Origin: Proteromonas lacertae | Taxonomy: Eukaryota | DNA: 64,000 nucleotides | NCBI GenBank assembly: GCA_002245135.1 | Contig: NGBS01000584.1 | Span: 62,001-126,000, forward strand | Reading direction: 5' to 3' | In this document: one piece after another, positions 6,682-64,000 of the stretch | Position numbering within the stretch: the stretch's first letter is position 1 | Layout of the letters: each line of letters opens with the position of its first letter | Made by a program: the position numbers and the translations under genes | The notes under the pieces: model-generated | Database searches by the model: none | Told to the model about the DNA's origin: nothing | What the model saw: only the letters and a program-made list of their open reading frames with translations

Positions 6682-6777
6682 TCTTACTCTTTCTGATGAG
6701 ATAAGCAAAGAAGAAAAAGTAAAAAAATAAAGTGATCTGTGAGTTTAATCTATATATATTTTCAAAAATTTAAGTGA

Positions 6778-6849
6778 GGCCTTGTGGTGTAATGGTTAGC
6801 ACTAGGGACTCTGAATCCCTCGATCCGAGTTCAAGTCTCGGCAAGGCCT
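6778..6849 (+). tRNA. tRNA-Gln (anticodon CTG)
   Basis: Cloverleaf with acceptor GGCCTTG/CAAGGCC, anticodon arm AGGGA-CTCTGAA-TCCCT and T-loop TTCAAGT. Followed by a T7 Pol III terminator. Confidence 0.95.
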
Positions 6850-7180
6850 AATTTTTTTGTTTTTTTCAATCCTTTCTTTTTATTATAGAATGATGTTAAA
6901 ATACTCCATTTTATTTGTAAAGAAGATTATCCAAAGTTAGTGATATAATTGAGAAAAGATATAGTTACTATTTTGAATAATCCACCTTATGATAAATATA
7001 GATAGTAGAAAACTCAAAAATAAAAGAATATGATAATAATCTATCTATTCCTTTTTTATTTTGTAAATAAAAAGTGAAATACAACCAAGTGTATTAATTC
7101 ATATTTATACACTGTATTGCAAAAATTATAACTGTCATTTTAGTAGTTGATAGTTTTCACAGTGTTGTAAGGGATATAGA

Positions 7181-21805: not shown

Positions 21806-24299
21806 ATGGGTTGTTGTGCATCAGTATATACTTTAAGAATAAGATCTCTAGAAAACAGACGCTGTTGATGAAACTGTCAACACACCACAAGAAGGTATGG
21901 CTATATATCATTTTTCTACATTGTTTTATTTCTATAAATATATTCCATATCTATTTGGACTGTATTTTATCATAATTTAGATGAACAAGAACTTCCAGCC
22001 TCATCATTGCTATTCAAGCTGAAAACAGCATCAGACGAAGAAAAGTCTAAATATGCAGATAAACTATTGGAATTAATAAAGAAGAAAGGTATAAATTTTT
22101 TAATCTATGATAAAACATAGATCCAAGCTGTGCTACATTAGTAGACGATGAGAATTGCTCAGTTTTAATTGATAATTTAAGTTCAAATCAAACAACTGAT
22201 GTAAGACGAAAGATGTGTGAAATACTTGTAGCTTTAGGTGATTTAGATCGTATATTAGCAATAGTAATTTATATGTAATAGTCGGAAAAACAAAAGAATT
22301 TGTAAAGAAACACGATGGTAAGAAAGGATTAGATGGATGTATGACATCTGACAATGAGGAGTTAAAGAAATGTGCAAAAGAAGCATATGATAAACTAGTG
22401 GAGCTTACACCATTAGACCAATTAGAAGCGGAGAAGAATCCAGAAGAACAATTGAAAATAATAGAAAAACAAGTAAAAGAATTAGATTATGAAAAAGCCA
22501 AACCATTTTATGAGAAATTATCTCAGATTATTAAAGATAATGATAAAATAGATATATCTGAACAAACACTTGAATGTATAATTAAAGAAATAAAGAAGAA
22601 TAAAGAATCTAGACCAACCTTAGTTCCTATATTTTACAAACTATCAAATCAAGCCAAATATTTAGTTCCAATTATAAAGAATGATGGTTTAATTATATTA
22701 GTAACACAATTCAATACTGATAATAAAGATGAACATTTATATAAAGATATAGAGATTAATAATAATAATATATCTAAAGAATCTGGTGATATTTTATGCA
22801 ATACTGTTTCAGTTAAAGATGAAGGTAAAGATGAATTATGTAAAGGTGAAAATATGTCAATTATTGTGAAAGAATATAAGAATAATAATAAAGATACAGT
22901 TGATAATGCTATTAAAATAATTTGCAATATTCAGAGTAAAAGTATATATATATATATTATTGTATTAAATAGAGGATATATCTAAATCAATCGGTTTAAA
23001 ATTAGCCTTGGAATTCTACAAGAATGATGATGATAAGAAGCTACAAGAAATAGGAACAAAATGCTTATCAGAATTAGCAAAGAAAGAAGACCAAATTCCA
23101 GAATTTATTAGTATTGGAGCTATAACTGATATAATGGATGTATTTAAGAATAGCAAAGATTTTGATCGTAAAGTTAGTGCATGTTCAATTATCTTAGCTT
23201 TGTGTAATAGTAATAAATGTTTACCATATGTTATTAAAGATGGAGGATTGAAATTCTTATTGAATACTATTAAGATTGGTGATTTTAAGTTTGTTGATAG
23301 TGGTACTACTGCTAGTAATAAGAATCCAGATGATGATAGAAAGAATGAATTATCATCTGATAGTGAAAATGAAGAAACAGTAAAACCAAAGGAAGAAGAA
23401 GCAAAACCAATAGTTGAATCAAGAAAATCAAGTTCATCATCATCTGATAGTGATAGGCCAAAGGAAGAAGAAAAACCAAAGGAAGAAGAGTCAAAACCAG
23501 TAGTTGAATCAAGAAAATCAAGTACATCTTCAAGTGGAAAGTGAAAAACCAAAAGAGGAAGAAAAACCTAAGGAAGAAGAGTCAAAACCAGTCGTAGAAT
23601 CTCGAAAATCAAGTTCATCATCATCTGATAGTGACAAACCAAAAGAAGAAGAAAAACCTAAAGAAGAACCAAAACCAGCACAAACTAGAAGTAGATCCTC
23701 CTCATCATCATCCAGTGAGAGTGATAAACCAGTTGAAGAAGAAAAGCCAAAAGAAGAACCAGAACCAGCTCCAGCACCACCAACTGAAGAATCAAGAGAA
23801 AGATCAGGAAGTTCATCATCATCTTCATCATCCTCATCCAGTGATAGTGAAAAACCAAAGAAAGAAGATATAGAACCAACTGAATCAGGTAATCCAGATG
23901 CATTGAAGGAATTACATGATGCTGCTCGTAGTAGAAGTTCATCATCATCTTCTTCATCATCATCTAGTGATAGTGAAGCACCAGCAGAACCAGCTGCTGC
24001 TGCACCTCCACCACCAGCGAGAAAGGAAGAATCACCTAAACCAACTGAAGAAACAAGATCAAGATCATCCAGTAGTTCATCAAGTGATAGTGACAAACCA
24101 AATGAAGAAGAAAAACCTAAGGAAGAAGAGCCAAAGCCAGTTGTTGAATCAAGAAAATCAAGTACATCTTCAAGTGGAAGTGAAAAACCTAAAGAAGAAG
24201 AGCCAAAGCCAGTTGTTGAATCTCGAAAATCAAGTTCATCTTCAAGTGGAAGTGAAAAACCAAAAGAAGAAAAAAAAAAAAAGAGAATCAAAAAAAAAT

Positions 24300-24350
<51 letters not shown>

Positions 24351-27300
24351 CAGTGTTGAATCTCGAAAATCAAGTTCATCTTCAAGTGGAAGTGAAAAAC
24401 CTAAAGAAGAAGAGCCAAAACCAGTTGTAGAATCTCGAAAACCTAGCAATTCATCAAGTGGAAGTGAAAAACCAGTTGAAGATGGTAATAAATCAGAAGT
24501 AATTGATTATTATCAATTATCCAAAGCATTCATAAAGAAATTAGACGATGATCAAAAGAAACTCAGACCATTATCTTTCCAAATATTATTACAATTATCA
24601 CAAGATTCAAAAATAGCCAAAGACTTAATGAATTATGAGACAGTTTCACAATTTAAATTGAACTTAGTAGATGAATCAGTAGCTCACTGCAGTGCTGAAA
24701 TATTAGTAAATTTATTAGAAGTAGATACTGAAAAAGTATCTGACTGGATTAGTAGAGAAAGTGGTATAATATTTTTACTCAATTATATACTTAACAATTA
24801 CACAAATCATCCATCTCATATGTCAAAATTTGTTGATTTATACTGCAATGTGATGAACCAAGATTTAGATAGAAATGTTATATTATTACATAATGAATTT
24901 AAGACAACATATGGTAAAGAATTATACAATGATAAATCATCCTTAAAACTCAATAAAGAAAGCAAAAATCTCTTATATTTCTTGAAATTAGTAGATTTAT
25001 TATCAACTAAGGATTGTAGCAAGATAATAAACGCTATTAGAGATCTTGAATTAACAACTAAAGAAGAACTACAAGATGCTACTAAATCATTAAATGAATG
25101 TGTCAGTGTGAAAGGTAAGAATGAACCTGAAGATTTAGAAGATATAGAATATCCAGAAGAATTAGAAGATGATATTACTGACAGACAATGCAATCATTAT
25201 ATATTTAATTATCGTAAATGTTATCCAAAGTGTGTTAATTTATTAGGATTTGATGATGAAATAGTGAAAGGTAATATATGTAGAATATTGATTGAAATGT
25301 TAAATAAAAGTATCTATTTATTTTATTTATTATTATTAATATAGAAAATATTGAACAATATTGTCATGATCAAGAATTCTTTACACTCTTATGTACAGTA
25401 TTAAGTTCAGAATCAATGGAAACCAAAGTAGCTGCTTATACATTGTTATTGAAATACACACCAATTGAAGGAGTTCCACCATTAATCCGTGAAGGAAGAG
25501 GTATTAAACCAATCATTAACGAATTAAAATGTGAAGATAAAAGTCTATTAGTTATTGTTTGTGGTTTAATAAGAGATTTAAATAAAGGTGATAATGAAGT
25601 ATATAAGATTATGAATAGATTTAGAGTTATTTATTCACTTATCGATATTATTAGAAGTGAAAAAGGTGAATTAAGAAAAGCTGCTTTAGAAGCCTTAGCT
25701 GCATTGACTCGTATTGAAGAGAATAAGAGAACTGTTAAGGACTTAGCATTATCATTATGTATGAATGTAATATACGATGATGAGAATGAAGATGATGTAA
25801 AATTAGCAGCTGCTGAAGTTATCAACGAAATTGCCATTGTAAACTTCTTCAAATTCGAAATAAAGAAAGATAAAGGTATTTCAAAGTTATTAAATGTAAT
25901 AAAATCAACTGACAGTGTAGAATTGAAAGTGTGTTTATGTAATATTATCTCCAGTTTGGTAATCAATGATACTGATAGACTATCAGTTATTAATGATGAT
26001 GGTTTAACTATCTTAATGGATTGTGTTAATATTGAAGGTAATACTGATTTATTATTAGCTTCCTCCACTATATTAGCCAAAGCATCCAGTAGTGCAACTG
26101 GTAGACCAAAGATGGTGAATGAAGGTATTATTGAAACAGCTATTAATAAGATGACTGTTGATAATCATGATATTAAAGTGAATTGTTGTACAATATTGAA
26201 TAAAGTGGCTTATAATGAAGAGAATTGTAAGAATATTGTACAGACATATGATGGTGTTGAACCAATCTTAGACTGTTTGAAATTACAATCAGATGAATTA
26301 GCTATATTAGTAATCAGTATAATGTACAAATTAGCATTGAATTGTGAATCAAATATACAAATCTTATTAGAAAAAGAAGTACCAGAAATGTTAATTAGAT
26401 GCTTAGAGAATGGTAATGATACTGTAAAAGTTGCTGCATTTGATGCTATTCATTGGTTATCATTGAAAGGTGTGAAATTACCTGCCTTTGCTGATGCTGA
26501 TATAATGAAATTAGTAGTAAACTGTTTGACAAGTGAAAGTACAGAAGTTGTACGACATGCTTGTACTACATTGTATTGGTTATGTTACAATGATCAGAAT
26601 TTAATCCCATTCGTAGTTGAATTTGATATATTAGGTACATTAATTGATTGTTTAGATAAAGATGATGTAGCTTTACAAACAATATCATTAAATGCATTGA
26701 ATAAATTATCTTACAATAATGAAGTAGCTGTTGAAGTATATGATAAAGGTGGAATTCCAAAAGTGTTATCTTTATTAGCTAATACCAATAAGAACAATCA
26801 AGATTTATTAATCCAAGTATGTAATTCAATCGCTTTATTCTGCGACAATGCTAAAATAAGACAATATATAGTAGATAATATAGAAAAGAGTGTATTAGAA
26901 GAATTATCCAATTCAACCAATATGACATTAGCATCTTCAGCAAGAAATGCAATAAAAGGATTAAGCAGTATTTCTGATGCTATTACATTACGTAAACCAA
27001 CTATGGATCCACAAGATTTAAGCAGATCAACCATCGTTACAGCTCATGGTAGATATTCAATGGATTGTCAAGATGTAAATCCAGATACAAGTATTGCTAA
27101 ACAGAAGAAAGATCAAGAAGAAAATGAAAGAGATAATTCAACAATTAATGAAGCTGATGAAAGTTTGAGTAATCCAGGTTCCTTTATTGAAACATCTGCT
27201 ATTGAAGATACACCATCATTCATTGAAGCACCACCAGCTATTAACGAGGAAGAGAAATTGCCTGAATTGAATGAATCTGCTATTACTAATAAAGATGATG

Positions 27301-42064: not shown

Positions 42065-45000
42065 TTATTTTGCAACTACTTCCTGTAATTTTGTTAATGC
42101 TATTCCAAATGCTTGAACAAGAGACAAGGGATATTTATAATCCAATACCCACGATTGTTCTATTCTAAATAATCTCAAAACAGGAGCTGGAATATACAAT
42201 GGCTTTTTACTTACTTCTAAACTCCTCACTAATTTATTCACTTTTTCTCTTGCTGGTTTTGCTTTGCTTAAAAACAAAACTTCTTCATCAGCTTCAACAT
42301 CATTGTTTTCTTTTAAATTATACTTAATTGGAGGTAAAGATAAGCAAAATGATTTACAATCAGTATCATTCTGAGTTCCAGAGACATTTATTTCTTCAAA
42401 GAATGCTGAAAAATGGTCTTTCTCTGATTTTGATGATGTATAAGCGTCTTCAGGTGTTTCATAAGTGGGAATACAGACTTGGTAGTTATAGGCAGGATAA
42501 TGAGACTTCTCTTCTACTTTAATTACTGCTAAATCTTTATAAGTACCATCATCAGTTCCAATAATTTCTGGATCATCATTTATAAGCAAAAAGATTGAAC
42601 CATTTGGATGACAAATTAATGTTGCTAAATATCCTTCACTTTTTCTATTCTTTAAAACATCATCAATATCTAAAGACATTATTATTTTATCTCCATATTG
42701 TTTTGCATAACAGATTGTAATAAACTCTTCAGAAGCATCAGGTAAGAAAAAACCACATTCATAATACTATATAAATATAATTAATATATGTATACTGTTG
42801 ATAAAAGTTTAGTTTGTTTATTAATTTGTACTCTAACATAAGCATTTCCATTAGGTGATTGAAATGGACAAACAAAACAGAAGTTTTTAATTTCACTAAA
42901 CTCCAAACCTGGTAATGAAGACATATCATAATATAAAGAAACTTTTCCATTCAAATTCTTTACAGTATAACATGGTGGTAAATATATTCCAGTTCTCACA
43001 TAAAAACCTCTGAAATATCTTGAAATTGTTGTAACAGCTTGTATCTTTCTTTCTCTTAATCTTTGAGCTTCTTCTTTCCATCCTTTTATTGCTTTTGGTA
43101 ATAATCTAAACTTGAAACAATTGAATGCTTTAATTCTGTTTTCTTTACGTCTTGCTTCATTTTCTTTAGTTATTCTGCAGTATTCTTTAAACACAGGAGT
43201 GATTAATTTCTTATTACTATATTCTATAGCTATTTTCATTTGTTCTCTTCTAAATTCAACTACTCTAACCCATTCTTTGAAATGATTCTTCAGAGTTATT
43301 CCATTATGCTTCTTCAAACCAATATCTACCTTTTCTTGTCTTAAATCTATCAATTCCAAAATATAATCTTTCCATTCAGTAAATACTTTGATTTGACAGA
43401 GTGTATGATAATGTGCAACAGATTTTAATTCATGTTCATAACGAATACTGAGAAGATGTAATACATATTTACTCCATGAATCAAAATATAACTTTAACAG
43501 ATGTGTCTTATAATGTAAAACAGCTTTATGTTCTTTTTCTTTTATTTGATTTACATTTTCAATAGCATTCTTATTCCATGTTTTAATACATGATCTCAAT
43601 AATCTAATCTTATCATGTTTAACAGCAATCATGAAATGTTTCCATTCTTTCATCATTTTTGTAAGAATCTTTGAATTATAGTGTTTAATAGCTTTTTCAT
43701 TATTCACAATATTTGATTGATTCAATTTAGTAATATAATTTTTATATACAATAAAATTCTTTCGCAATAAATGTGATTTATAGAAGTTAATTGCTTTTTC
43801 TACTTTATTTGGATCTACAGCATTCTGTAATTGTGAATATCTCAACCATTTTGCCATTATTCTTCTTTGCATTGTTCTATGATAATGATTTTCTGCTTTA
43901 ACCATATTATTATGTACTTTTTGAATATATTTCTTCCATGTTCTATAAGTTAGTTTCATACCACTCTTAGAATAGAAATCAGATGCAATTTTGTTCTTTT
44001 CTGGATCTTCTTTGTTTTGTTCAATTGTATATTTATTCCACTCTCTAAGTATAATTTTCATTACTTGTTTTTCTCTAAATCCAGCTGCTTTATTCATCTT
44101 TTCAGTGTTCATTTTATTCATTTCATCTATATAGCCCAACCACATATTAATTGTCTTACCTTTCAGCTTTTTGTTATAAAAATCATCTGCTTTTCGATAC
44201 TTTTTAGCAACAACTTCTAATAACACTTTCAAATTATCATACCATAACTCAATTACTCTCTTCTTGATATATTTATTATTCAAATGAACAGCTTTCATGT
44301 GTTTTTTCCAATCCTTCATCATATCAATCAACAACCTCTTATTATAATGATTAATAGCTACATTTTCATCTTCTTTTTCTTTCAACAACACTTTCTGAAC
44401 ATAACTATACCAAGATTTATAACTTTTATAAACCAGTGTATGAATGTAGTGTTTATTTGCTTTTTCATCATCTATAACTTCTTTCTTTTGATCTTTGACA
44501 TTATTATACCACAATTTGAAATATTTCTTATTAATTCTATCATTATAATGAGAAATTGATGAATTCTCTTTGATTTTCATATCTTTAATTTCTTTTACAG
44601 ATTCTTTCCATTGTTTTATTGATTTCTTCATCAATTTTTCATTATAATGTTTGTCTGATTTTGAAGCATTGAGTTTTTCTTCATCAATCAATTTCTTCAC
44701 ATAATTATACCATTTTTCTATTATCTTCTTTTCTATTGTGTTTCTGTAATGACTATTTGATTTAATGAGATTCTGTTTCTTCTTTGATGTAGTGTCAAAA
44801 ATATACTTTGACCAAGCTTTAAATGTCTTTTTCAACAAATGAGATATACAGAATTTTCTGGATTTTTCTTCATTCTTTTGGTTGATATCTTTCTGTTGAA
44901 TATGTTTATTCTTCCAGAGATTGTAACTATCTTTCTTTAAGTTCTTATTATAACAATTATTTGCTTTAGCTAAATCTTTAGGATCAGTAGAATTAATGTA

Positions 45001-48000
45001 TTTTGTAAACTTGTTCCAATTCTTGATAGTTCTTTTCTTAATCTTTTTATTGTTGAATTTCATTGCTTTTTGATTATTCTTATGATATGTGTCGATAAAT
45101 TTCTTCCATTTCATATAGCATTTAGTTAATTCAGTATGTTTAAAATGATTTTCAGCTTTCTCAACTTCTTCAGGTATTTCAGTGTTTTGATCAATTGAAT
45201 ATTTGTTCCATCTTGTTATAATTCTCTTCAGGATTATTGGATTTCGATGATTTACTGCTTTATTATAATTATTTTTACAAACTTCATGATATTTCTTCCA
45301 TAGTTTATAATAATCTTTCAATACATTCTTATTGTAATTCTTATTTGCTTTAACAACATCTTTTGGATCAGTTGAATTGATATATTTTGTGCATTTATTC
45401 CAATATTTGATTGTTTTCTTCTTCAATTGTCGTTTATTAAACTTGTCTGACTTTTCAACATTCTTGTGATATACATCTATATATTTCTTCCACAATTTAT
45501 AATATTTTATTAATCCAACTCGCTTAAAGTGATTTTCAGCTTTATCAACTTCTTCAGGTATTTCAGTGTTTTGATCGATTGTGTATTTATTCCATTCTCT
45601 TAAGATTTTCTTTAATATTATTGGATTTCGATGATTAATTGCTTTGTTGGTATTATTATGATGTAATTCTACATTCTTCTTTAATAAATTCATTCCGATA
45701 TTCAACAGTCGTTTAGCATTGTGTAAATTACTCTTTTCTAGTTCTTCTTCAGTTGTTAGTTGAGATTTATAATATTTATTCCATTCTTTTATTACTCTCT
45801 TCTTCAAATTAATGTTGAATTTCTTATTCGCCTTATTCACATTATTGTGAAGTATTTCTATTAATTTCTTCCAATTATTTATTGAATGTTTCTTTAGATT
45901 CTTATTATAACAATTAGTAGATTTCTCAACATCCTTTTCATCTACTGAATTTATATATTTCGTATATTTACTCCATTTTGTTAAGATTCTCTTCATTAGT
46001 TTCTTTTCACTAAATACAACAGCTTTAATATTTTTATTTTCAAGATATTTCTTCCATAAAATTATGAATTTCTTGGATAATACACTAATATGATGTTTAT
46101 TAGCTATTGCTATATGTTGTCTAGTTATTATTGCTTCTTCTTTTGTGTATTTATTCCAATGTTTAACTATCTTCTTCTTCATTTTTCTATTATAGAATTT
46201 ATCTGATTTTTCAACATTCTTATGATATGTTTCTACACTCTTTTTAAATCCTTTCTTGAAATATTTTGTTAATTGTTTAATTCTGTAATGATTTTCAGCT
46301 TTCTCAACTTCTTCAGGTATTTCAGTGTTTTGATCAATTGTATATTTGTTCCATCTTGTTATAATTCTCTTCAGGATTATTGGATTTCGATGATTTACTG
46401 CTTTATTATAATTATTTTTATAAATTTCATGATATTTCTTCCACAACAAATAAGTCTTTTTTAGCAATGAATTATTATAATGTTTACTAGCAATGATTAC
46501 ATGTTCTACATCTAATTCTCTTTCGTTTTGAGTAAATTTGAACCAATTTCTATATTCTTTTATCAATAATTTCTTAGTATAACTCTTATCAGCAGTTTCA
46601 ACATTCTTGTGATATACATCTATATATTTCTTCCACAATTTATAATATTTTATTAATCCAACTCGCTTAAAATGATTTTCAGCTTTATCAACTTCTTCAG
46701 GTATTTCAGTATTTTGATCGATTGTGTATTTATTCCATTCTCTTAAGATTTTCTTTAATATTATTGGATTTCGATGATTAATTGCTTTGTTGGTATTATT
46801 ATGATGTAATTCTACATTCTTCTTTAATAAATTCATTCCGATATTCAACAGTCGTTTAGCATTGTGTAAATTACTCTTTTCTAGTTCTTCTTCAGTTGTT
46901 AGTTGAGATTTATAATATTTATTCCATTCTTTTATTACTCTCTTCTTCAAATTAATGTTGAATTTCTTATTCGCCTTATTCACATTATTGTGAAGTATTT
47001 CTATTAATTTCTTCCAATTATTTATTGAATGTGTCATAAGGTTGTTGTTATAGCAATTATTTGACTTTTCTATATCCATTTCATCTACTGAATTTATATA
47101 TTTCGTATATTTGCTCCATTTCTTCAATAATTTCTTCATCAGTTTCTTTTCACTAAATACAACAGCTTTTGTATTTTTATTTTCAAGATATTTCTTCCAT
47201 AAAATTATGAATTTCTTGGATAATACACTAATATGATGTTTATTAGCTATTGCTATATGTTGTCTAGTTATTATTGCTTCTTCTTTTGTGTATTTATTCC
47301 AATGTTTAACTATCTTCTTCTTCATTTTTCTATTATAGAATTTATCTGATTTTTCAACATTCTTATGATATATTTCAATATATTTCTTCCACAATTTATA
47401 ATATTTTATTAATCCAACTCGCTTAAAGTGATTTTCAGCTTTCTCTATTTCTTCAGGAATTTCAGTGTTTTGATCGATTGTGTATTTATTCCATTCTTTT
47501 AAGATTTTCTTTAATATTATTGGATTTCGATGATTAATTGCTTTATTGTTATTATTATGATATATTTCAATACATATCTTAAATAATTTCATTGCTTTAT
47601 TCAGAAGTTGTTTTCTATAATGCGTTTTACTCTTTTCTATTTCTTCTTCGGTTATTAGTTGAGATCTGTAATAGTCATACCATCTATTGATTACTTTCTT
47701 CTTCATATTACTAGTATATTTCTTATTCGCTTTATTTGTATTATTGTGAAGCATTACAATGAGTTTCTTCCAATTATTCATTGAATGTTTCTTAAGGTTG
47801 TTGTTATAGCAATTAGTAGATTTCTCAACATCCTTTTCATCAACTGAATTAATATATTTCGTATATTTACTCCATTTCTTCAATAATTTCTTCAATAATC
47901 TAATTCTTCTAAACTCTTGAGAGTTTTTAACTTTCTGTTGGAATTGTAAGTGATACTTTAGATAAATCTGGAAATGTTTTGATAATAATTTCCTATCATA

Positions 48001-50381
48001 ATGATCATAAGCTTTGATATAATCTTGAGTATGTACAAGTTGAGATAAATAGTATTTATACCATTTATGAATATACTTCCTTCTTAATTTCTTTTTATTA
48101 AATCTTATAGCTCTCTTCATATGTCTATGCATCTTCTTAGTGAAATATTTCCATTCTTTATAATATTTATAAGTTATTCTATGATTATAATGATTATATG
48201 CGATTATAGTATTCTCTTTTTCTTCTTTTACCACTCTCTTTACATATTTATACCAATTAGTAATAAACTTTGCAAGTGTCTTAATTATAAATTGTTTTTC
48301 AGCTTTTTCATTATTCATTTTTGTAATTGGAATAATCTTCTTCCATTGAGTAAAGAGTTTAGTTTTCATATGCTTTTGATAGTGTTTATCAGCTTTTTTA
48401 ATAGCAATTGGATGTAAAGCAAATTCATACCAAATCTTACAACTTTTATCTTTAAGAAATTTATCATAATAAATTTGAGCTCTTATATCTTTAGCTTGTA
48501 AATCATCAACATAATTAACCCATTTTCTAAATGATTTATTAGTGAGGGTTTTATTCCTATGTTCTCTAGCTTTTAGTTCATCCTTTTCATGTCTAATATT
48601 ACTTTCTAAAGCATAATGATACCAAGCAATTGATGTTTTCTTTGCTATTTTTTCATTATAATATCTGATTGATTTTGGAATTAATGATTGTAGATGATAA
48701 TAATAATTATACCATCTAATAAAATGTTTCTTTAACATCTTTAATCTATAATAAAGTTTTGCTCTTGATTCAAATGCTGGATTTGAATATGAATCTACAT
48801 CAACAACATGATTCTCACTCATATATTTCTTATATTTCATATACATTCTATCAAAATAATATATTTAATATATACTTTGAATGATTCTGTAATGTGACTA
48901 ATTTATCATAATAAGAAGCTTCAAAACATTCCAATTGTTTATAAAATTGATAATAACTTATACATCTTTCATAATATGGTCTATTATTTATTGTTGAAAT
49001 AAGACTTCTTCTTGGTCTTATTAATTTCTGCTGTAAATTCTCTAAGTTTCGAATATCACCTTCTAATTTCATTTTAGTCTTCTATATTTCGTTAGAAAAA
49101 TTAAAAGTTATACAGCATTTTTGTATTGTATTATTACAGAATCTGTTGATGATATTGAATTGTTTATTTTACTTAATTCATATTTTGCTGTTAATATATC
49201 CATTTCAACTTTTATTGAATTATTTGATGTGTTTTTATTAATGAAATTATTGATGTAATCTTTTCTATCTTTTATTAACCTACTATTATTATTAATAATT
49301 TGCTTTATTTCTATTGGAATTCTTTGATAATCTTTCATCAAATAATCAATCAAATCATCTGAAAATACAATAGTTTCACTATTTACTTTAATTATTGTAT
49401 GAACATAAGCTTGTATTGTCTGCATTGTTTTTATAATCAAATAATCCATTTAATACAGATGCTATTGAATCATCTGATAAAAAATAAGATTCTTTCTATT
49501 TATAATAATAATAATAATTAAAATGATTATACTGTGCAATTATTTACATATATATATTGTCTGATTATTAAATAAAAAGACAGTAAATCATTCTCTTCAT
49601 TAGAAGATAGAAATGATCTGAAATATCTGACTATTGGCTGATTATTACAGTTTTCAATTGAATATATCATATTATATCCTTTCTATAATTATAGTATATA
49701 TTATTGTTATAATATATATACATTTCTGACGAGTGAAATATCTAAACATTCTTTACATAATAAATAATAGACATGATATGGAAATGGATCTAATATTAAA
49801 TCATCTTTCTATTTCATTTTAATAATATATAAATATACTTTCATTGAAAAGCATGTTTCATAATCGTATCTTTTAGAAAATATATACAACACTTGCTTCA
49901 TTAAATCTTTGGTTGGAATAAGTGAGTATGAAGGAGGAGAAAAAAGTGAATCTGGAATAAAAGATAGGAATAAAGACTATTAATTCTTTATTAATAGGAT
50001 ATTACATACATATTTTTTGGAAATATCAGAAGTTAACCCAACAAGCCTTGGAGAAACAGGTGATTCTGGTCTTTCTATTTTTGGAAGTTGTTTAGGCCGT
50101 CTAGGTAATTGACCGAGGTGTGTAGATAATATATTATCCGTATCACTCGCAGTTCTGCTTATATCTCCTTTACGAACCAATTTTAATGGTTTAATACCTT
50201 CACTATCAGATCTTCTTAAAGCAGATGCTGAACGACATTTTTGAGGAGTTTGTATATAAAAATCGCCGAAATTTACTGATTTTGAGAGAGGAGTGACATC
50301 TGGATTAGACCTATTTGTAGAAATAGGTGCTAGTGATGGTGGTGTCCTTCTAAATGACGATATTCCCCTTCTTTCAGTCAT
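42065..50381 (-). CDS. Giant protein (about 2600 aa): Sfi1-like Trp repeats, IQ motif, C-terminal Tubby domain
   Basis: Seven GT-AG introns join the ORFs at 49980, 49108, 48851, 42781 and 42065 in frame. Periodic A...(H/Y)....L.K.....W repeats, ISRYFRGFYVR, and terminal LDYKYPLSLVQAFGIAL. Confidence 0.75.
45140..47370. repeat. About 1.14-kb near-identical intragenic tandem duplication
   Basis: CTTCCACAATTTATAATATTTTATTAATCCAACTCGCTTAAA occurs at about 45487 and 46630, with a third partial copy near 47387. Long identical peptide blocks recur in the ORF. Confidence 0.9.
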
Positions 50382-53017: not shown

Positions 53018-55281
53018 TTAATATGATAAATTATCCTTCCATCTTGGATATGGAACAATATCTTTAATACTTTTCATTCCTACAATATACTTTACTAATT
53101 TATCAAAATAAACTGTAAATCCTCCATGATTAGTATTTCCATATTTTCTTAAATCTAAATACCATCTCATTGTATTTTCATCACATCCACATTCTTTCAT
53201 TTTTTCTTCTAAAACTTCAATTCTATCTTCTTTCACACAACCTTCTCCTATTATTCCTATTTCTGGTAATGTAACATCAAATGAATAACTATATTTATTA
53301 TCAATTCCAGTCTTAATATAGAATTTACTTTTATCAACTGGTTTATGATATTCAAATACTCCTTTTTCTCCTTCTTTTACTGTTTCACCTTCTTTATATT
53401 CTACTCTTTTAAATGGATTTAAAACTATTTTGTTTAATGTATCGATCTTTGATTCTATCTCTTCCGCTTTAGTAAACACATTCTTTAATTCATTTTTATT
53501 CTTTTCAATTACATAACATAAACAATATTTAATATAATCTTCACATATATCCATCAAATCTTCCATTTCAACAAAACTCATTTCAGTTGTCACATACCAT
53601 CTTTCACTTAATTCTTCTTCTTCTTCTGTATTTGTATTAAACACTGGATTAAATGAATAAACATCACCTAATGATAAACAGAAAGGTTCAATGGATAATT
53701 CATTGGATTGGCAAAGTGTAACTTCTCTCTTAAAGAAATCTTCAGTGTAATCTATTTTTCCATCTTTAGTATATTTCATTTGTTTCTAAATTATTACAAT
53801 AATAATAACAATATATTCATACTGTTTTATCATTAAACATAGTAGTAACATTAAAAACAGAATCACATACTACTGGTTTATTTGATGTAATAATAGGTGG
53901 ATTAATGTAGATAAATCCATGTTGATTATAAAATAAGTGAGTAGCAAATGAACAACTGTTTCTGACTTTCATAATATTTCCATACTATTGATAAGATTAA
54001 TAAATAAATATATATGTAATACAATCTTGTTTCTAGGTCTTAAATGATAAATTGATTGAATTGCACTAATATCATCTTTATCAATTAACAAATCACCATT
54101 ATTCTGACTTAACGAAACAATCTCATTAACATTCATTTTTACATTTCCTTCAAGTTTCTTTGATATTATGCCTTTCACTTCTATTGTATAATTCTTTCTT
54201 ATTTTCAAATCTTCTGAAATATTATCTTTATTAATTGTAAGTGTCAAACAATCATAATATGAACCATCATTTATATCAACTTCAACCATATTCTTATCTT
54301 CTGATTCTCTGATAGTTTCAATCCATCCACATACCTTAATCTCATTGTTATTCATATTTGAATCATTTATATTATAGATATCTTGTATGTATACTCTTTT
54401 TCTTGTATATTTATAACTCAAATTCGTTGATAATATAGCTACATTTTTGTTAATTGCATTGATATCATACTCTGGATAATTTCTCTTTATATCTATTTTT
54501 CTATTCTCTATTTTAACATCTTTTTCTTTTCTAGTAACTTCTATATCTTGTTTCTTTTTCTTCTTATTTAATTCATTTTGAGTAGCATAATATGTTATAT
54601 CTCCTAACACATCATGAATTTCAGTCTAAACGAATAAAAAATAGAAGTAATATACAATTGTTAGACAATTTGAGAAATACTTTGTTAAAACAGGTAATTC
54701 ATTTCTTTCTTTCTCAGTTAATATCATTTTGAATACATTCCAAAGATCGCACACTAATGATATATCAGCAAAACTTAATTCATCATCTATTAGATATTTA
54801 TGATGCTTTAATTCTTCTTCAATAATCATTAGTTTATTCTTCAAATCTTTCTTTGATTCTTTACTAACCTATTTATTAAGAAAAGATATTAATTTTCATT
54901 ATACTACTCTATTTTCTCTTATTTTTTTAAATGAAGGGAATGTCAATACTCCTATTGGAACTTCAAGTTCGTTCATTTCAAAATCCAACCATTTATCAAC
55001 CATAGCTTTTCTAAAGTCAGTTGCTCCATATAAACTACTAGCAGTTGGTAAAGTACCAAACATTCTGATAATTGTGTTTGCAGAAGTAAAGGTATTTGTT
55101 CCACAAGATAATATTGGTGTCTTTTCACTATCTCCAGTAACTTCAATATGTTTTACTGGGAATTTAGTAAGTTTCTCAATAATACTGATCTAACTCATTA
55201 AATAGATATTTGATATACCTTTTTTGAATTATAATCCTCATTATTATATTTTAATGTAAAATGACAATTAATTCTGTTCAT
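53018..55281 (-). CDS. GST-like domain fused to a degenerate asparaginyl-tRNA synthetase-like protein
   Basis: N-terminus SANTIIRMF...LYGATDFRKAMVDKWLDF...YLIDDELSFADI (GST/EF1B-gamma-like). OB fold VCGWIETIR...INDGS. Core DGKIDYTEDFF and WYLDLRKYGNTNHGGF...DIVPYPR. Confidence 0.8.
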
Positions 55282-57972: not shown

Positions 57973-60900
57973 CTATTCTTCTTCTTCCTCACCATCATTT
58001 AGCTCAGTATTGTTAATAAAATTGTTATCTAAATTTATATTATCTTGCTCAGGTTGAGTAGCATATATATCAGTATTTCTAATTATTTGTTCTGAGTTGT
58101 AAGTACTATTGTTATTATTGTTGTTGTTATTGTTCTTTTCGTCTATTCTCGATAATTTATCAACAGTCTTATTAGATACATTAGATGCTCTTGTATTGGT
58201 TAGAAGGATTGGCTGATTGGGTTTACTTGAATTCCTATTGTATGGATGAATCTTATTATGTTTACTAACAGTTTTGTATAAAGGTTCAAACTGTCGAACT
58301 GATAGTCTTTTTCCTTTTTTCTTTCTCTTATATTCTTTATATATTTTATAAAACTTTGGAACGATAAATATTCCTGAACTTACTATGACAACTAGACAAA
58401 TACCTAAATTCTCTAAAACAAACTTAGCTTCTTGATTTGTTGTTAATACTATCTCTATAACCAAATATAGCAATTCTAATATAGCCAAAGCTGCTATTGT
58501 TGTTGATAATGATCTACTATCATTAAATTCATCCATTGTATTTCTTGTAGTCCATGAAAAGTAAATACCACAGGTAAAAAGAATAGTCAAAATTACACCT
58601 TGAAATAGCATATAATATATACTCTTATCACATTCTTGAATATAAACATTCTTTATAATTGTTGAATATTCTTTTGATAATGTCATTGAATAACCAGAAA
58701 ATGGATCTATCAAACCCCAAACAACTGAAATAAATGCACATAAAAATAATATCATGAATAACCTCAGGAAAACTTTCTCATTAGTTATTTTTTGTCTTGT
58801 CATTTTTTGATTTCTATATACTGCATGAATTCTCCATGTTCTAAGAATCAATATTCCAGAATAATTAATTAAACACAAGTAAAATAACCCCTGAGTAAAC
58901 AGACATCCTAAATCATTAGATGCAACTAAAGATGACACAATTGATGTTAAAATAACAAAAATACCTGAGACTAAAAAGTATATCAAAAACTGATAACTTG
59001 CAGCTTTTAACACTTTATATTTTCTAAACAGTATTAATACAGTTACTTCAAACACCAACAACACTGTGACTATAACACAAATTGATATGATTATAGATAT
59101 GATAGCTTGATTGATATGAAATATCTCTGTTGTAGGACCACAATCGCAATTTGAGTCATTTTTAAAATAAACTATTGGTGATAATGAAACTCTCAAATTT
59201 TTATTGTCTATTGGAACAGCTTTACCAGCAGAACTAATTTCTACAATCTCAAATACAGATTCAATATGATTTGTTATACTTCCATGTTTATTACCAGATG
59301 ATGTTGATATATCCACCAACTGAGTTCCTCTTCTAATATAATCAATTGTTGGCTTTGCATTATTGATATTGTCTATATTTGCTAATGATAAAGCTTGTTT
59401 TACACTTGCCAAATATATCACAAATGATGATTCTAATGCTGATAATGTTTCAGTTATAAATTCGATAGATCCGATTTTTATATCAATATAATTTTCAAAG
59501 TTTATCGTTGAAGGTAAAGATCTATCACTTGAGTAAGTTCTTGGGAAGAAATGACCTGTTAATTTAGTGATTATATCATAACCCATCAAATACTCTTCAA
59601 TATCATATACTACCTGTAAATGATGTATTGATGAGAATCCATTTTTGATATACAATTCTTCAAATAATAATAAATACTTATAATCTAACATATTAAATAT
59701 GATAGTTTTCATTCTTTCTGATGATAAAATCTTCATTACTCCATCAAATTTTTCTTCATAATTATCATCATTTACTATAGTAATATTCATTGGGACAATT
59801 TTTGTATTATTAACTAAGTAACTATATATATATTCAGAAATATCAATTGCATCAGCTTCATAACCTTTTGCAACACTCATCACTATAATTGCATACTTAT
59901 ATGATGTATTTTGAACTGCTTCTATAGATGGGATTAATACAGTTCTCAATGACGGTTTTATATGAACAATATTACTATCACATTCAGGGTACAGAGGATA
60001 GTTCAATGAATATAATAACTTGTGTGAATTACCTATCATTTTGGCTTTTATTAAACTGTAAGAATACTGTGATTGACATCCAAATAGAATTTGAATTTTA
60101 TCATTTTCAAATAATGAATTAACTAATGTAAAATCATAATCTGTATGTCTTATGGCTATAATTTTATAAGTCATCTTCGTTTCTAAAATTCCACCTTGAT
60201 TATTCTCATCTCGAATATAATTATCAAACAGTAATAACATCAAATGTGATAATCTTTTATTGGCTCTATCACAATAATCTAATATCAATGCAAACACTGA
60301 TGTACTATTCTCTGCAAAATCTTCTTGATAAATTGAAGTGTCATATGTTTTAGGTGATAATAATTCAGTGTGAGATACTACTTTGTATTTGAAATCTACA
60401 TCTTGGACTAAAACTTCATAGTATCTTCTTTGGGCTTTCAAATCTTTGCTTATGTATATAGAACCACTTGGAGTTGAATATTGATGATATGATATTGATT
60501 CAATTAATAGTGTAATATTACTTGGTGATAGAAATTTCTTTAAAGTTGAAACTAACATAGAAAATGATACATATGAATTCTCCATGAAACCAAATGTAGA
60601 ATTCAATTGAGGAAAATTACTATGCTTGAAATCTTCAAATTCTTTATGTTGAGGTGTAAGAAAATCATAACCTGTTTCATTTAATTCAGGCACATACGTT
60701 TCAATAGTTTTTACACCTTTATATATCCTGCTTATTTCATCTTTATTATTTCTGTCAATAAATGGAGTATAAACAATATATTTGTTATCATTTAATAACC
60801 CATTCTTATATATTGAATTCATGCCTAGAATATTTAAATCTCCATCAATACTATATATTATAAAACATGTTGATGAATTGGATGAATAACATGTAGAATT

Positions 60901-63900
60901 AAGTGATGCTATTACTTTATCAAAATCAACCCCTTCTTGTATTATATATGAATTCAGATTTATTGCAGTGTTAGATAAACGCAATGATAAATCATTATAT
61001 AGTGAATAAGAGAACAGTGATTCATCTACAATAATAAACAGATCATATGAATATTTAAGTATTTCACGATAATATATGTATGATAAGATAGTCACTGGCA
61101 ATCCAAAATCAATTACGTTGTTACTTTCAAATAATTGAAATGAAAAACCAATATTCATATATAATGTATCTTTATCAAAATACTCTTTTTGATTAAACTT
61201 ATAACCTCGAATATGAGTGAAAACTATCCTCACTTTTTCATACGACATATAGTCAAACGCTTCTTTCAGTCCTTCATCTGTTGAATAAGTATCTTTCACA
61301 ATTGGCTGTAAATAATATCCTAAATCAATTGAAGTTTTTATATTAAATTCAGCCATACATATTAGCAATGTTGATATTGAATAAATAGTAGAATCACTGT
61401 ACATTCCACTAACAGGATAAATAATCCCGACTTTAAAAACGGGAAGTGTAATTTCCCCATTAGCATTAGGCCAAGAACAAACAGTTACATTTATTACATT
61501 CATTTTACTATATATTGCCCAAGAATGTGCCTTTAAAGGTCCTAAAATATATTCAAATAATTCTCCTTTATCATTAATATAACTATATGTTAAAGACTTC
61601 ATTAATCTATTATTCTGTTGCATATATACTCTTCCTTCTACACTATCCACTTCTAAATTGTAAATCAAATCATAATATTGTGATGAAAAGATTGGCAATT
61701 GGAACTGGTTAAAAGATGCCCAAAAATGGAACATATTGTATAATGATGCTATCTTATCAGATAATTTGTTGGCTTTTATTGAATCTGCTATTGTTGTATA
61801 GGCATCATATAATTCATCTGAAACAACTGAAGATCTTATTTGATTTTTATCATCAATGAAAATATGAGGAGTTGAATCTATTACATAATAATAAGGAGTT
61901 TTTGTAATGAAAGAAGGTTGATTATAGAAACTAATATATCGAATTTTTCCATTTGCATTACCATCATCTGTATAATTATTAATACACTGTATAACTTTAT
62001 TAATGGCAATTTCATCATCATTATCCATAACTATATAAAATCCATCATTATAATCTCTAATATACTCCCTTAATTGATGATGTAGATTAGGATCTTCAAA
62101 TTTTATATCATTGATCAAATGAATTGCTAAAGAAATAACAACATTATGTATTTGGATATATTCATAATCATATTCTTTTGAATGCAATAATAACACATCC
62201 ATATTATTATCCACAGACATTAATTGTATAAATAAATTAGATAGTGAAACACCAGGATACAAAGCACTTGCATAAACATCTCTAATACATATTTCTTCAT
62301 CAAATTGGGAAATAATATTAATTGGTTTTGGATGATCTTTTGTAATGTCCAAAAACTTTTTAATACATTCATATGGAGCTGAAATGTACAACGCTAAATA
62401 AGCATCAGTTTCATTGAACATTTTTGCATAACTTTCACAAGCACCTATTGATGGTGGTTGTGTATATTTAAAGATAATTCTGTTATGATTAATACCACCA
62501 TTACCATTTATAGGAGCTAAAATACTATTAGCAATACCTAACAATTGAAAATCTACTTCATTTTGAGGATATACAACCATCATATAAGAATTACTATTCT
62601 GATATCCTTTCTCCATTATTGATTCATTTCTAAAGTCACAAATAAAATTAGGTGTAATAAACCAATCGTATGCATCTGGTGATGTTGGATTTCTGTAATT
62701 TGCAATTACATGTAATGAACCATCTTCAAAGTACTGAGCCAATTGAAATTTCTTTGACAACATGTTATTTGAAGCTAGTTTTATAATTCCTTCGTCAGTT
62801 TCAACTTCTTTATTGTAAATTTTACTTATTTTGATAATTTCACCATCGTCTGGATTAACATTTAATAATTCTTTGATGAATAAGAATATAATATAAACAT
62901 TTGACATCCTTGTTGTTACAGTTTTATACATGGTATATTCATAAACTGACTTTTTAAATTTATCATCTTCATCAGTTTGAAAATATGACCCAAACATGTA
63001 TATTCCTTCTCTTAATTCAACAGGAATAGTCTCAAATTGTGTTTCAGATATGTAATAAGTTAAAAACGGATATCTATCTCTTTTCATTTTTCTACTATAT
63101 AACTCATTTAACAACAACAATAAATAATCAGTACCTGGATGTATAAATAGCACCAATCCATTGTTTTTCTCCATTATATTTACTGTATTTATCATATCTA
63201 TTACAGTCGATCCATGCATATCAAATGATAAAAGAATAAGGGCTGTTCCTTCTATTGTCTTTCTGATAATAGAATGAGAGACATTTGAGCAATGTAATTT
63301 ACTATCATAGAATAAATACATATATTGATTAGTAGCAAAGAATGGAGAAAAATGAGAAAATGCATTTGAATAATATTGATTTGGTAATCCACCTGTAAAT
63401 ATTATATTCCTATAACAACTTTGACCACAAAAAGGTGAAGGATAGAAGAAATAGATAGGAGTATCTACTAATATCTTTTCTATTGCATAAAAACAATCTG
63501 GATGTGCACCTCCAATTATAAAATCATATTCACCAGAATTGATTATAGTCTTAGTTACTGATGTACATAGATTTGTATCTGATTTAGTATCAAATAATGT
63601 ATAGAATAATTCATAATCTTTGATTTCATTCTGCACAGTATAATATCCACTAATTGAAGCTAGAAATAATGGTAATTCTTGAACTCTTTGTTCACCTGAT
63701 AATGCATATATGAATGCTATTCCTACTTTCCTTTTATTGAAGTCTTTACTTTCTTTCTTTGGTTTATTTACCATTGAAAATGAAGATGAAGGAGTAAAAA
63801 AAGCATGCAATATTTCAGAATGGTAATAAGTTTCAAATTTTCCATTGTTGTAGTATAATAAATATACATAATGATTCAAATAATATCCTGAATTAATATA

Positions 63901-64000
63901 TACAGGACCACTTGGTAAGTTTATTGGTGTGATAAAAATATTATAATAGTAAGTATTCCTATTATTGTCACTGTCTATAGAGGCACGATAAAATAATAAA
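57973..64000 (-). CDS. Class C (GABA-B-like) 7TM receptor with tandem periplasmic-binding-protein type 1 (UrtA/AmiC-like) domains; 5' end beyond the window
   Basis: Frame is open to the window edge. 7TM motifs RKYKVLKAASYQF, LRTWRIHAVY, WGLIDP and FSWTTRNTMDEFNDSRSL. Ectodomain motif FFYPSPFCGQSCYRNIIFTGGLPNQ. Confidence 0.8.
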   Translation of the reverse strand, partial: LLFYRASIDSDNNRNTYYYNIFITPINLPSGPVYINSGYYLNHYVYLLYYNNGKFETYYHSEILHAFFTPSSSFSMVNKPKKESKDFNKRKVGIAFIYALSGEQRVQELPLFLASISGYYTVQNEIKDYELFYTLFDTKSDTNLCTSVTKTIINSGEYDFIIGGAHPDCFYAIEKILVDTPIYFFYPSPFCGQSCYRNIIFTGGLPNQYYSNAFSHFSPFFATNQYMYLFYDSKLHCSNVSHSIIRKTIEGTALILLSFDMHGSTVIDMINTVNIMEKNNGLVLFIHPGTDYLLLLLNELYSRKMKRDRYPFLTYYISETQFETIPVELREGIYMFGSYFQTDEDDKFKKSVYEYTMYKTVTTRMSNVYIIFLFIKELLNVNPDDGEIIKISKIYNKEVETDEGIIKLASNNMLSKKFQLAQYFEDGSLHVIANYRNPTSPDAYDWFITPNFICDFRNESIMEKGYQNSNSYMMVVYPQNEVDFQLLGIANSILAPINGNGGINHNRIIFKYTQPPSIGACESYAKMFNETDAYLALYISAPYECIKKFLDITKDHPKPINIISQFDEEICIRDVYASALYPGVSLSNLFIQLMSVDNNMDVLLLHSKEYDYEYIQIHNVVISLAIHLINDIKFEDPNLHHQLREYIRDYNDGFYIVMDNDDEIAINKVIQCINNYTDDGNANGKIRYISFYNQPSFITKTPYYYVIDSTPHIFIDDKNQIRSSVVSDELYDAYTTIADSIKANKLSDKIASLYNMFHFWASFNQFQLPIFSSQYYDLIYNLEVDSVEGRVYMQQNNRLMKSLTYSYINDKGELFEYILGPLKAHSWAIYSKMNVINVTVCSWPNANGEITLPVFKVGIIYPVSGMYSDSTIYSISTLLICMAEFNIKTSIDLGYYLQPIVKDTYSTDEGLKEAFDYMSYEKVRIVFTHIRGYKFNQKEYFDKDTLYMNIGFSFQLFESNNVIDFGLPVTILSYIYYREILKYSYDLFIIVDESLFSYSLYNDLSLRLSNTAINLNSYIIQEGVDFDKVIASLNSTCYSSNSSTCFIIYSIDGDLNILGMNSIYKNGLLNDNKYIVYTPFIDRNNKDEISRIYKGVKTIETYVPELNETGYDFLTPQHKEFEDFKHSNFPQLNSTFGFMENSYVSFSMLVSTLKKFLSPSNITLLIESISYHQYSTPSGSIYISKDLKAQRRYYEVLVQDVDFKYKVVSHTELLSPKTYDTSIYQEDFAENSTSVFALILDYCDRANKRLSHLMLLLFDNYIRDENNQGGILETKMTYKIIAIRHTDYDFTLVNSLFENDKIQILFGCQSQYSYSLIKAKMIGNSHKLLYSLNYPLYPECDSNIVHIKPSLRTVLIPSIEAVQNTSYKYAIIVMSVAKGYEADAIDISEYIYSYLVNNTKIVPMNITIVNDDNYEEKFDGVMKILSSERMKTIIFNMLDYKYLLLFEELYIKNGFSSIHHLQVVYDIEEYLMGYDIITKLTGHFFPRTYSSDRSLPSTINFENYIDIKIGSIEFITETLSALESSFVIYLASVKQALSLANIDNINNAKPTIDYIRRGTQLVDISTSSGNKHGSITNHIESVFEIVEISSAGKAVPIDNKNLRVSLSPIVYFKNDSNCDCGPTTEIFHINQAIISIIISICVIVTVLLVFEVTVLILFRKYKVLKAASYQFLIYFLVSGIFVILTSIVSSLVASNDLGCLFTQGLFYLCLINYSGILILRTWRIHAVYRNQKMTRQKITNEKVFLRLFMILFLCAFISVVWGLIDPFSGYSMTLSKEYSTIIKNVYIQECDKSIYYMLFQGVILTILFTCGIYFSWTTRNTMDEFNDSRSLSTTIAALAILELLYLVIEIVLTTNQEAKFVLENLGICLVVIVSSGIFIVPKFYKIYKEYKRKKKGKRLSVRQFEPLYKTVSKHNKIHPYNRNSSKPNQPILLTNTRASNVSNKTVDKLSRIDEKNNNNNNNNNSTYNSEQIIRNTDIYATQPEQDNINLDNNFINNTELNDGEEEEE

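What the first reader, a model, noticed from the sequence alone, without database searches (positions are those of the whole stretch)
53018..55281. GST-fused AsnRS paralogue that has lost both class II catalytic arginines
Seen: an intact spliced ORF with a GST/EF1B-gamma-like N-terminus, an anticodon-binding OB fold and an AsnRS core. Motif 2, normally FGPTFRAENS.T.RHLAEFWM.E.E, reads FNPVFNTNTEEEEELSERWYVTTE (about 53585-53657). Motif 3, normally HGGFGLGFERL, reads HGGFTVYFDKL (about 53095-53130). LTVSGQL has become LCQSNEL, and the insertion domain is largely deleted. Established: the motif 2 and motif 3 arginines bind ATP in class II synthetases, and GST-like domains assemble multisynthetase and EF1B complexes (Arc1p, AIMP2/3). 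Inference: this is a catalytically dead synthetase retained as a scaffold, tRNA-binding cofactor or heterodimer partner of an active AsnRS.
Basis: partly seen in the sequence, partly recalled or inferred. Interest (0 to 1): 0.75.

Follow-up and report, generated by a model that had tools for sequence, protein, structure and literature searches.

The report
Conserved dead asparagine-tRNA synthetase copy
This protist gene is an intact copy of the enzyme that loads asparagine onto tRNA; it has lost its ATP-, asparagine- and anticodon-binding residues yet is conserved in related organisms, so it likely serves as an inactive partner subunit of a working copy, and flowering plants appear to have evolved a similar dead copy independently.

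Summary
Observation confirmed. A six-exon, 697-aa minus-strand ORF (55281-53018; five GT-AG introns, 29-38 nt) encodes a GST-like domain, an OB fold and a bacterial/organellar-type AsnRS core. Both class II arginines are gone (N492, K671). It is not a pseudogene. Orthologous fragments from two other lineages (70-74% identical) share the lesions. Family-invariant positions it kept are 38/40 identical in an orthologue, while former catalytic positions drift (21/37, like variable sites at 63/104). The best-kept segments include those that form the AsnRS dimer interface. The GST fusion is inherited, since intact GST-AsnRS proteins occur in stramenopiles and alveolates. Best reading (inferred, about 0.5): a catalytically dead structural subunit that heterodimerises with an active AsnRS, as SLIMP does with SerRS2, but without binding tRNA. 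The active partner, expression and binding could not be tested. Plant 'cytoplasmic AsnRS 2' proteins show convergent losses, which makes the idea testable in Arabidopsis.

The parts
55219..55281 (-). Exon 1 (ATG at 55281); first strand of the GST-like domain, no organellar presequence evident
   Evidence: aligns with the N-termini of intact GST-AsnRS
54905..55189 (-). Exon 2; GST N-lobe and helices 2-3 (interface-1 region; Arg and Asp kept)
   Evidence: (EPRS GST, E 5e-4)
54656..54868 (-). Exon 3; GST C-terminal helices, N-capping box kept, helix-7 Arg replaced by Lys
   Evidence: (GST_C E 1.2e-10)
54023..54625 (-). Exon 4; Lys-rich linker (54571-54407), OB fold (54406-54062) with anticodon residues replaced (E302, T315, K350), HLRPR hinge
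   Evidence: AlphaFold2 barrel at pLDDT 89-95
53823..53984 (-). Exon 5; motif 1 (53969-53889, kept) and flipping loop (53888-53856, degenerate, Glu lost)
53018..53785 (-). Exon 6; catalytic core with stop codon TAA
53696..53716 (-). Former amino-acid pocket segment LCQSNEL (intact: LTVSGQL)
53582..53659 (-). Degenerate motif 2; catalytic Arg position is Asn492 (53638-53636)
53339..53413 (-). Remnant of the insertion domain, about 31 residues shorter than the intact median; same span in both orthologue lineages
53096..53128 (-). Degenerate motif 3; catalytic Arg position is Lys671 (53101-53099), pocket glycines replaced by Thr and Tyr
53021..53077 (-). C-terminal segment with YPRW, equivalent to the human AsnRS tail that makes inter-subunit contacts
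   Evidence: PMC12513289 passages; the residue mapping to human is by motif, inferred

Best explanation
This gene is a duplicated GST-AsnRS that has lost its catalytic and anticodon-binding residues but is held intact by selection, and it likely acts as a dead structural subunit in a heterodimer with an active AsnRS encoded elsewhere in the genome. Shown: intact spliced frame, loss of substrate contacts, conservation in three lineages, preserved fold (predicted), and inheritance of the GST domain. Inferred: an active AsnRS must exist, because this protein cannot make Asn-tRNA. After duplication the homodimer likely became a heterodimer. The dead subunit would supply the motif 1, helix and C-terminal contacts that shape the partner's active site, and would add a second GST handle for EF1B or multisynthetase partners. 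In AsnRS a tRNA is modelled as binding one subunit, so the dead subunit would not need to read the anticodon, which fits its loss of those residues.
For: (1) 42 of 86 columns at least 90% conserved in 93 intact bacterial-type AsnRS are kept. The lost ones include the equivalents of human E279, R322 and E324 (Asn and adenylate contacts, PMC10831071 passages), of R522, and the pocket glycines. (2) Kept columns are 38/40 identical in orthologue P0237, replaced ones 21/37 and variable ones 63/104 (Fisher p 9e-5 kept vs replaced, 0.70 replaced vs variable): structure is selected and the old site drifts. (3) The best-conserved segments are residues 466-491 (25/26), 649-678 (27/30), 432-465 (29/34) and motif 1 (20/27). 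Motif 1 and the C-terminal tail are dimer elements (PMC7564348 legend; PMC12513289). (4) Neutral simulation: 0 of 2000 runs reach 71% identity without a stop, and 13 of 2000 reach 85%. (5) Long stem (1.43) with short tips (0.14-0.25). (6) The AlphaFold2 model of orthologue P0237 has pLDDT 91 and pTM 0.90 and matches AsnRS 6pqh (TM 0.86). (7) Precedent: the SLIMP/SerRS2 obligate heterodimer with an ablated site (PMC10570016).
Against: No active paralogue from the same organism was identified. The kept residues are also buried core residues, so they show a preserved fold rather than a partner; a homodimer or another complex would look the same. The C-terminal segment is only 9/19 identical in P0237, though 18/19 in P0238. 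A dead human AsnRS subunit poisons its wild-type partner (PMC12513289), although that mutant lacks the tail that this protein keeps. The AlphaFold2 model used an alignment of intact enzymes and is biased towards their fold. The orthologues are fragments of the core only; their GST and OB parts were not seen.
Confidence: 0.5

Rival explanations
1. Stand-alone scaffold: the protein homodimerises through the dead core and uses its GST domains to organise a multisynthetase or EF1B complex (AIMP/Arc1p-like), without pairing with active AsnRS.
For: The GST domain is intact, 48-59 of about 191 positions identical to five close intact GST-AsnRS. GST domains build such complexes (PMC10813123 passages). 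A preserved core fits a homodimer equally well.
Against: The helix-7 Arg needed for GST interface 2 is Lys. The active enzyme family already carries the same GST domain, so a dead copy adds no new domain. A pure GST scaffold does not explain 95% conservation of core positions.
Confidence: 0.25
2. Moonlighting regulator outside aminoacylation (HisZ-like or dominant-negative modulator): the fold is reused to bind an unrelated protein or to tune AsnRS activity.
For: HisZ and SLIMP show such reuse (PMC9437257 passages). Several replacement residues are shared with orthologues, e.g. N470, E471, N488, E623, K627. Dead human AsnRS subunits inhibit wild type.
Against: Replaced positions as a class evolve like variable sites. 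The asparagine pocket is filled (G470N, G623E, G666T/K, G668Y/D), so asparagine sensing is unlikely. No linked partner gene lies nearby.
Confidence: 0.13
3. tRNA-binding cofactor that recruits tRNA through its OB fold (Arc1p/Trbp111-like).
For: The OB barrel is predicted folded. Arg293 and a Lys-rich linker (net +7) remain.
Against: The anticodon Phe, Gln and Glu are replaced (their role is recalled from class IIb structures, their conservation measured here). The OB domain has net charge -6 and the core -8.
Confidence: 0.07
4. Still an enzyme (residual AsnRS, or an AsnA/EpmA-like adenylating enzyme), or a decaying pseudogene.
For: The fold is intact, and Lys at motif 3 and at the GGSQR Arg position is a conservative change.
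Against: Mutating the arginine tweezers abolishes function (PMC5919687 passage). The flipping loop and motif 2 loop are degenerate and differ between orthologues. An open frame in three lineages excludes neutral decay.
Confidence: 0.05

Closest known systems
Bacterial/organellar-type AsnRS (asnS; PDB 6pqh) and its GST-fused eukaryotic form (P0192 Phaeomonas cluster, P0053 Abedinium, P0203-P0213)
   Same: Same domain order (GST, OB, class IIb core), motif 1, fold (TM 0.86) and C-terminal tail; about 33% core identity.
   Different: Lacks both arginines, the flipping-loop Glu, SGQ, the pocket glycines, about 31 residues of the insertion domain and the anticodon Phe/Gln/Glu.
SLIMP (dead SerRS2 paralogue, obligate heterodimer in invertebrate mitochondria)
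   Same: Duplicated class II synthetase with an ablated active site, preserved fold and faster evolution, retained by selection (PMC10570016 abstract, introduction and passages).
   Different: Different synthetase, likely cytosolic. SLIMP keeps its tRNA-binding arm because SerRS binds tRNA across subunits; this protein has lost anticodon contacts. Heterodimer formation is not shown here.
Plant 'asparagine--tRNA ligase, cytoplasmic 2' (SYNC2-like) proteins
   Same: Motif 3 Arg lost in 9 of 9 examined and motif 2 Arg in 5 of 9. Of 83 invariant core columns, 33 are lost in both groups and 33 kept in both (Fisher p 6e-8).
   Different: Most carry the plant WHEP-region insertion, have no GST domain and keep the insertion domain. 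They group with plant SYNC1-type P0047 in two of three trees. The paper read (PMC7564348 passages) treats SYNC2 as a full-length cytosolic AsnRS.
HisZ, AS-A/AS-AR, EpmA, trypanosomatid pseudodimeric TyrRS
   Same: Synthetase folds reused; the TyrRS pseudodimer has one degenerate half (PMC8319005 passages).
   Different: AS-A activates aspartate with ATP and lacks the tRNA domain; EpmA is likewise an active enzyme (recalled). NCBIfam scores for these are far below cut-off. HisZ is bacterial and regulates HisG. The TyrRS halves are fused.

Membership tests
Active class IIb AsnRS | Motif 2 Arg and motif 3 Arg (arginine tweezers) | tested here: not met
   N492 (Thr in the orthologue) and K671
Active class IIb AsnRS | Flipping-loop Glu and SGQ/GGSQR asparagine pocket | tested here: not met
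   V426, SNE, EGCVK
Active class IIb AsnRS | OB fold with anticodon Phe/Gln/Glu | tested here: not met
   Fold present; residues E302, T315, K350
Active class IIb AsnRS | Class II fold with motif 1 dimer element | tested here: met
   Predicted model; motif 1 kept
SLIMP-type dead synthetase subunit | Paralogue of a class II synthetase with ablated active site and conserved fold | tested here: met
SLIMP-type dead synthetase subunit | Forms a heterodimer with the active paralogue that is needed for aminoacylation | not testable with these tools
   No genome held, no partner sequence from this organism, complex prediction unavailable
SLIMP-type dead synthetase subunit | Retains the tRNA-binding element | tested here: not met
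   Anticodon residues replaced; sequence-level test only
AIMP/Arc1p-type GST scaffold | GST-like domain with N-capping box and helices 2-3 | tested here: met
AIMP/Arc1p-type GST scaffold | Helix-7 Arg for GST interface 2 | tested here: not met
   Lys here, Arg in 11 of 11 intact relatives (criterion from PMC10813123)
Plant SYNC2 clade | Descent from plant cytosolic WHEP-AsnRS | tested here: not met
   No WHEP-region insertion, GST instead. Separate in the trees; attracted together when catalytic columns were included

The most novel reading that the evidence does not exclude
Eukaryotes that use the bacterial-type AsnRS in the cytosol have more than once turned the homodimer into an asymmetric enzyme with one dead subunit. 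This protist protein and plant SYNC2 would be independent, convergent pseudo-subunits, and AsnRS would be a second synthetase after mitochondrial SerRS with an obligate dead partner, here one that touches neither substrate nor tRNA.
Probability: 0.3. Interest if true: 0.78.

Novelty: new variant of a known kind. Interest (0 to 1): 0.58.

Why it matters
Dead synthetase paralogues with a structural role are known from few cases (SLIMP, HisZ). None for AsnRS appeared in ten full-text searches; that library lacks most subscription journals. A conserved AsnRS pseudoenzyme that lost both catalysis and anticodon reading would be a clean test of whether homomers become heteromers by duplication and mutual dependence alone. 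The convergent plant SYNC2 proteins, annotated as active ligases, make the question testable in a model plant and may need re-annotation.

Tried and rejected
No whole genome is held, so the active paralogue could not be sought directly. The sequencing-run search gave no RNA holder listed; laying three DNA runs showed no splice joints. The metagenome locus scan returned 7 loci, whose matched stretches are AspRS-like with the motif 2 Arg intact, so no orthologue DNA, synteny or dN/dS was obtained. The search for longer proteins found no full-length dead orthologue among 24 hits. The protein atlas returned only generic tRNA-synt_2 clusters. A mixture-model tree on all core columns nested the dead clade within SYNC2-like proteins (SH-aLRT 100). 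This vanished when 84 columns conserved in intact enzymes but lost in a dead group were dropped, and it was absent under LG+G4. I read it as convergence, but the column choice used the labels. A clade of the dead proteins with bacterial P0278 was not rejected (p-AU 0.50), though free trees place P0278 among bacteria. The nearest intact sequence in two trees is P0239 (support 87; also AT-biased), so the parent lineage is unresolved. The genome scan with P0278 found two loci: L008 encodes an intact asnS, L009 scores over the asnS cut-off (its motifs were not read), and the second full-length hit in that genome is an AspRS-type gene, not a dead copy. Earlier scan notes held nothing on this sequence. 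Supplements of the papers were not opened.

Full report
Context. The window is 22-32% GC, has short introns and encodes CFAP300, so it is likely a flagellated or ciliated protist using the standard code. No whole genome is held for it. The lineage was not determined; the GST-AsnRS architecture points to stramenopiles or alveolates (inferred). Neighbours are an AMPK beta subunit gene ending 89 nt upstream on the same strand and an EF-hand gene downstream; no functional link is evident.

Gene model. Six exons (55281-55219, 55189-54905, 54868-54656, 54625-54023, 53984-53823, 53785-53018) give a 697-aa protein; the introns are GT-AG, 29-38 nt and phase 0. Orthologue P0237 carries 11 extra low-complexity residues exactly at intron 5, and these are the only stretch below pLDDT 50 in its model. 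This supports a shared intron position. Domains are GST-like, OB fold and class IIb core. The best solved relative is Elizabethkingia AsnRS 6pqh by sequence (E 4e-45) and by fold (TM 0.86), so this is the bacterial/organellar type, not the human type.

What is lost. From 355 retrieved proteins, 265 had both arginine motifs by pattern, 126 were full-length bacterial-type and 93 remained after dereplication. Of 86 columns at least 90% conserved in these, the window protein keeps 42. Because the set was chosen on the two arginines, their 100% conservation is by construction; the PDB alignments are the independent check. Lost are the flipping loop (D-C-E-G-A-G), G and Q of SGQL, the motif 2 Arg and following loop, the E..GGS.R elements, and the motif 3 glycines and Arg. 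In human AsnRS the flipping-loop Glu binds asparagine, and the motif 2 Arg and Glu bind the adenylate (PMC10831071, passages). Mutating the tweezers abolishes function (PMC5919687, passages). Small pocket residues became bulky (G470N, G623E, G666T, G668Y). The insertion domain is 25 residues against a median of 56. The OB-fold Phe (86%), Gln (86%) and Glu (89%) are E, T and K, while Arg293 is kept; that these read the anticodon is recalled, not shown by a call. The barrel itself is predicted folded (pLDDT 89-95 over residues 81-170 of exon 4).

It is conserved. A search of 1.84 billion representatives returned one close hit, P0025 (71%, E 2e-105); the next scored 2e-45. A profile search added P0237 (same lineage as P0025/P0175, longer) and P0238 (5 members, 74%). 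All are unnamed assembly fragments of the core. With the window that makes three lineages sharing the insertion-domain deletion and the motif 3 lesion; P0238 does not cover motif 2. Invariant columns kept in the window protein are 38/40 identical in P0237, replaced ones 21/37 and variable ones 63/104. Selection therefore acts on the scaffold, and no new catalytic constellation is being fixed. Neutral mutation to 71% identity left the frame open in 0 of 2000 runs. The clade has a long stem and short tips.

The GST fusion is old. Five hits and a family of 13 clusters carry GST on the same synthetase, including Phaeomonas and Abedinium proteins. The full-length members shown in the alignment have intact motifs; several of the 13 are N-terminal fragments. 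The window's GST is about 25-31% identical to the closest of these. It keeps the helix-2 Arg, helix-3 Asp and N-cap, but has Lys for the helix-7 Arg seen in 11 of 11, the residue needed for GST interface 2 (PMC10813123, passages).

Mechanism (inferred). The cell needs an active AsnRS, so this is a paralogue. AsnRS is a dimer, and motif 1 and the C-terminal tail build the interface and steady the active site (PMC7564348 legend; PMC12513289 passages). These segments, and the helix after SGQL, are the best-kept parts. A tRNA is modelled on one subunit of AsnRS, so a dead partner could drop anticodon reading, unlike SLIMP, which keeps its tRNA arm (PMC10570016, abstract, introduction and passages). 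I put the heterodimer at about 0.5, a self-dimerising GST scaffold at 0.25, a regulator at 0.13, a tRNA cofactor at 0.07, and enzyme or pseudogene at 0.05. Against the lead reading: the same residues are buried core, no partner was seen, and a tail-less dead human subunit poisons its partner.

Parallels. Of the 355 proteins, 18 lacked a motif arginine by pattern: 4 of this clade, 13 plant SYNC2-like and 1 bacterial-looking P0278 (patterns can miss fragments). Several of the plant proteins are named 'asparagine--tRNA ligase, cytoplasmic 2'. In nine of them the motif 3 Arg is always lost and the motif 2 Arg is lost in five; the losses overlap those here (33 both lost, 33 both kept, 17 discordant of 83; p 6e-8). 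Arabidopsis SYNC2 itself was not retrieved. Architecture (WHEP-region insertion versus GST) and two trees favour independent origins; one tree joined them. Overlap of losses is expected for any folded dead enzyme and does not show a shared function.

Literature seen. PMC10570016: abstract, introduction, start of methods and passages. PMC12513289, PMC10831071, PMC5919687, PMC9437257, PMC10813123, PMC7564348, PMC8319005 and PMC6723311: passages only. No supplements were opened. Ten searches found no description of a dead AsnRS paralogue; only one paper names SYNC2, and its passages do not call it inactive.

Verdict. A real, conserved AsnRS pseudoenzyme: a new variant of a known kind (dead synthetase paralogue), with its role inferred and not shown. 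Interest 0.58.

Noticed in passing
proteins P0039, P0071, P0079, P0082, P0106, P0114, P0130, P0174, P0196: Plant 'cytoplasmic AsnRS 2' proteins lack the motif 3 Arg (9 of 9), the flipping loop and pocket residues, and look catalytically dead although annotated as ligases.
   Followed up: partly
protein P0278: Bacterial-looking 447-aa AsnRS lacking both arginines but keeping the anticodon residues; 60% identical to an intact Bacilli asnS (L008:1524-2918); a singleton with no second dead copy found.
   Followed up: partly
protein P0155 cluster: 467-aa AsnRS relative on contigs up to 15 kb that keeps both arginines but has lost SGQL and altered the flipping loop and GGSQR; possibly a changed specificity.
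   Followed up: no
window 55218-53786: All five introns of the gene are phase 0 and 29-38 nt long.
   Followed up: no
window 42781-48864 (-): Open frame of 2027 aa built of Trp-containing basic repeats; by eye like Sfi1 centrin-binding repeats (recalled, not tested).
   Followed up: no
window 58000-64000: No open frame of 70 aa or more in about 6 kb, unlike the gene-dense rest of the window.
   Followed up: no
window 6777-6850 (+): Single tRNA-Gln(CTG) gene.
   Followed up: no
window about 24250-24360: Long A-run giving poly-Lys, with a frame change between two long ORFs of an armadillo-like gene; an intron or an assembly slip.
   Followed up: no
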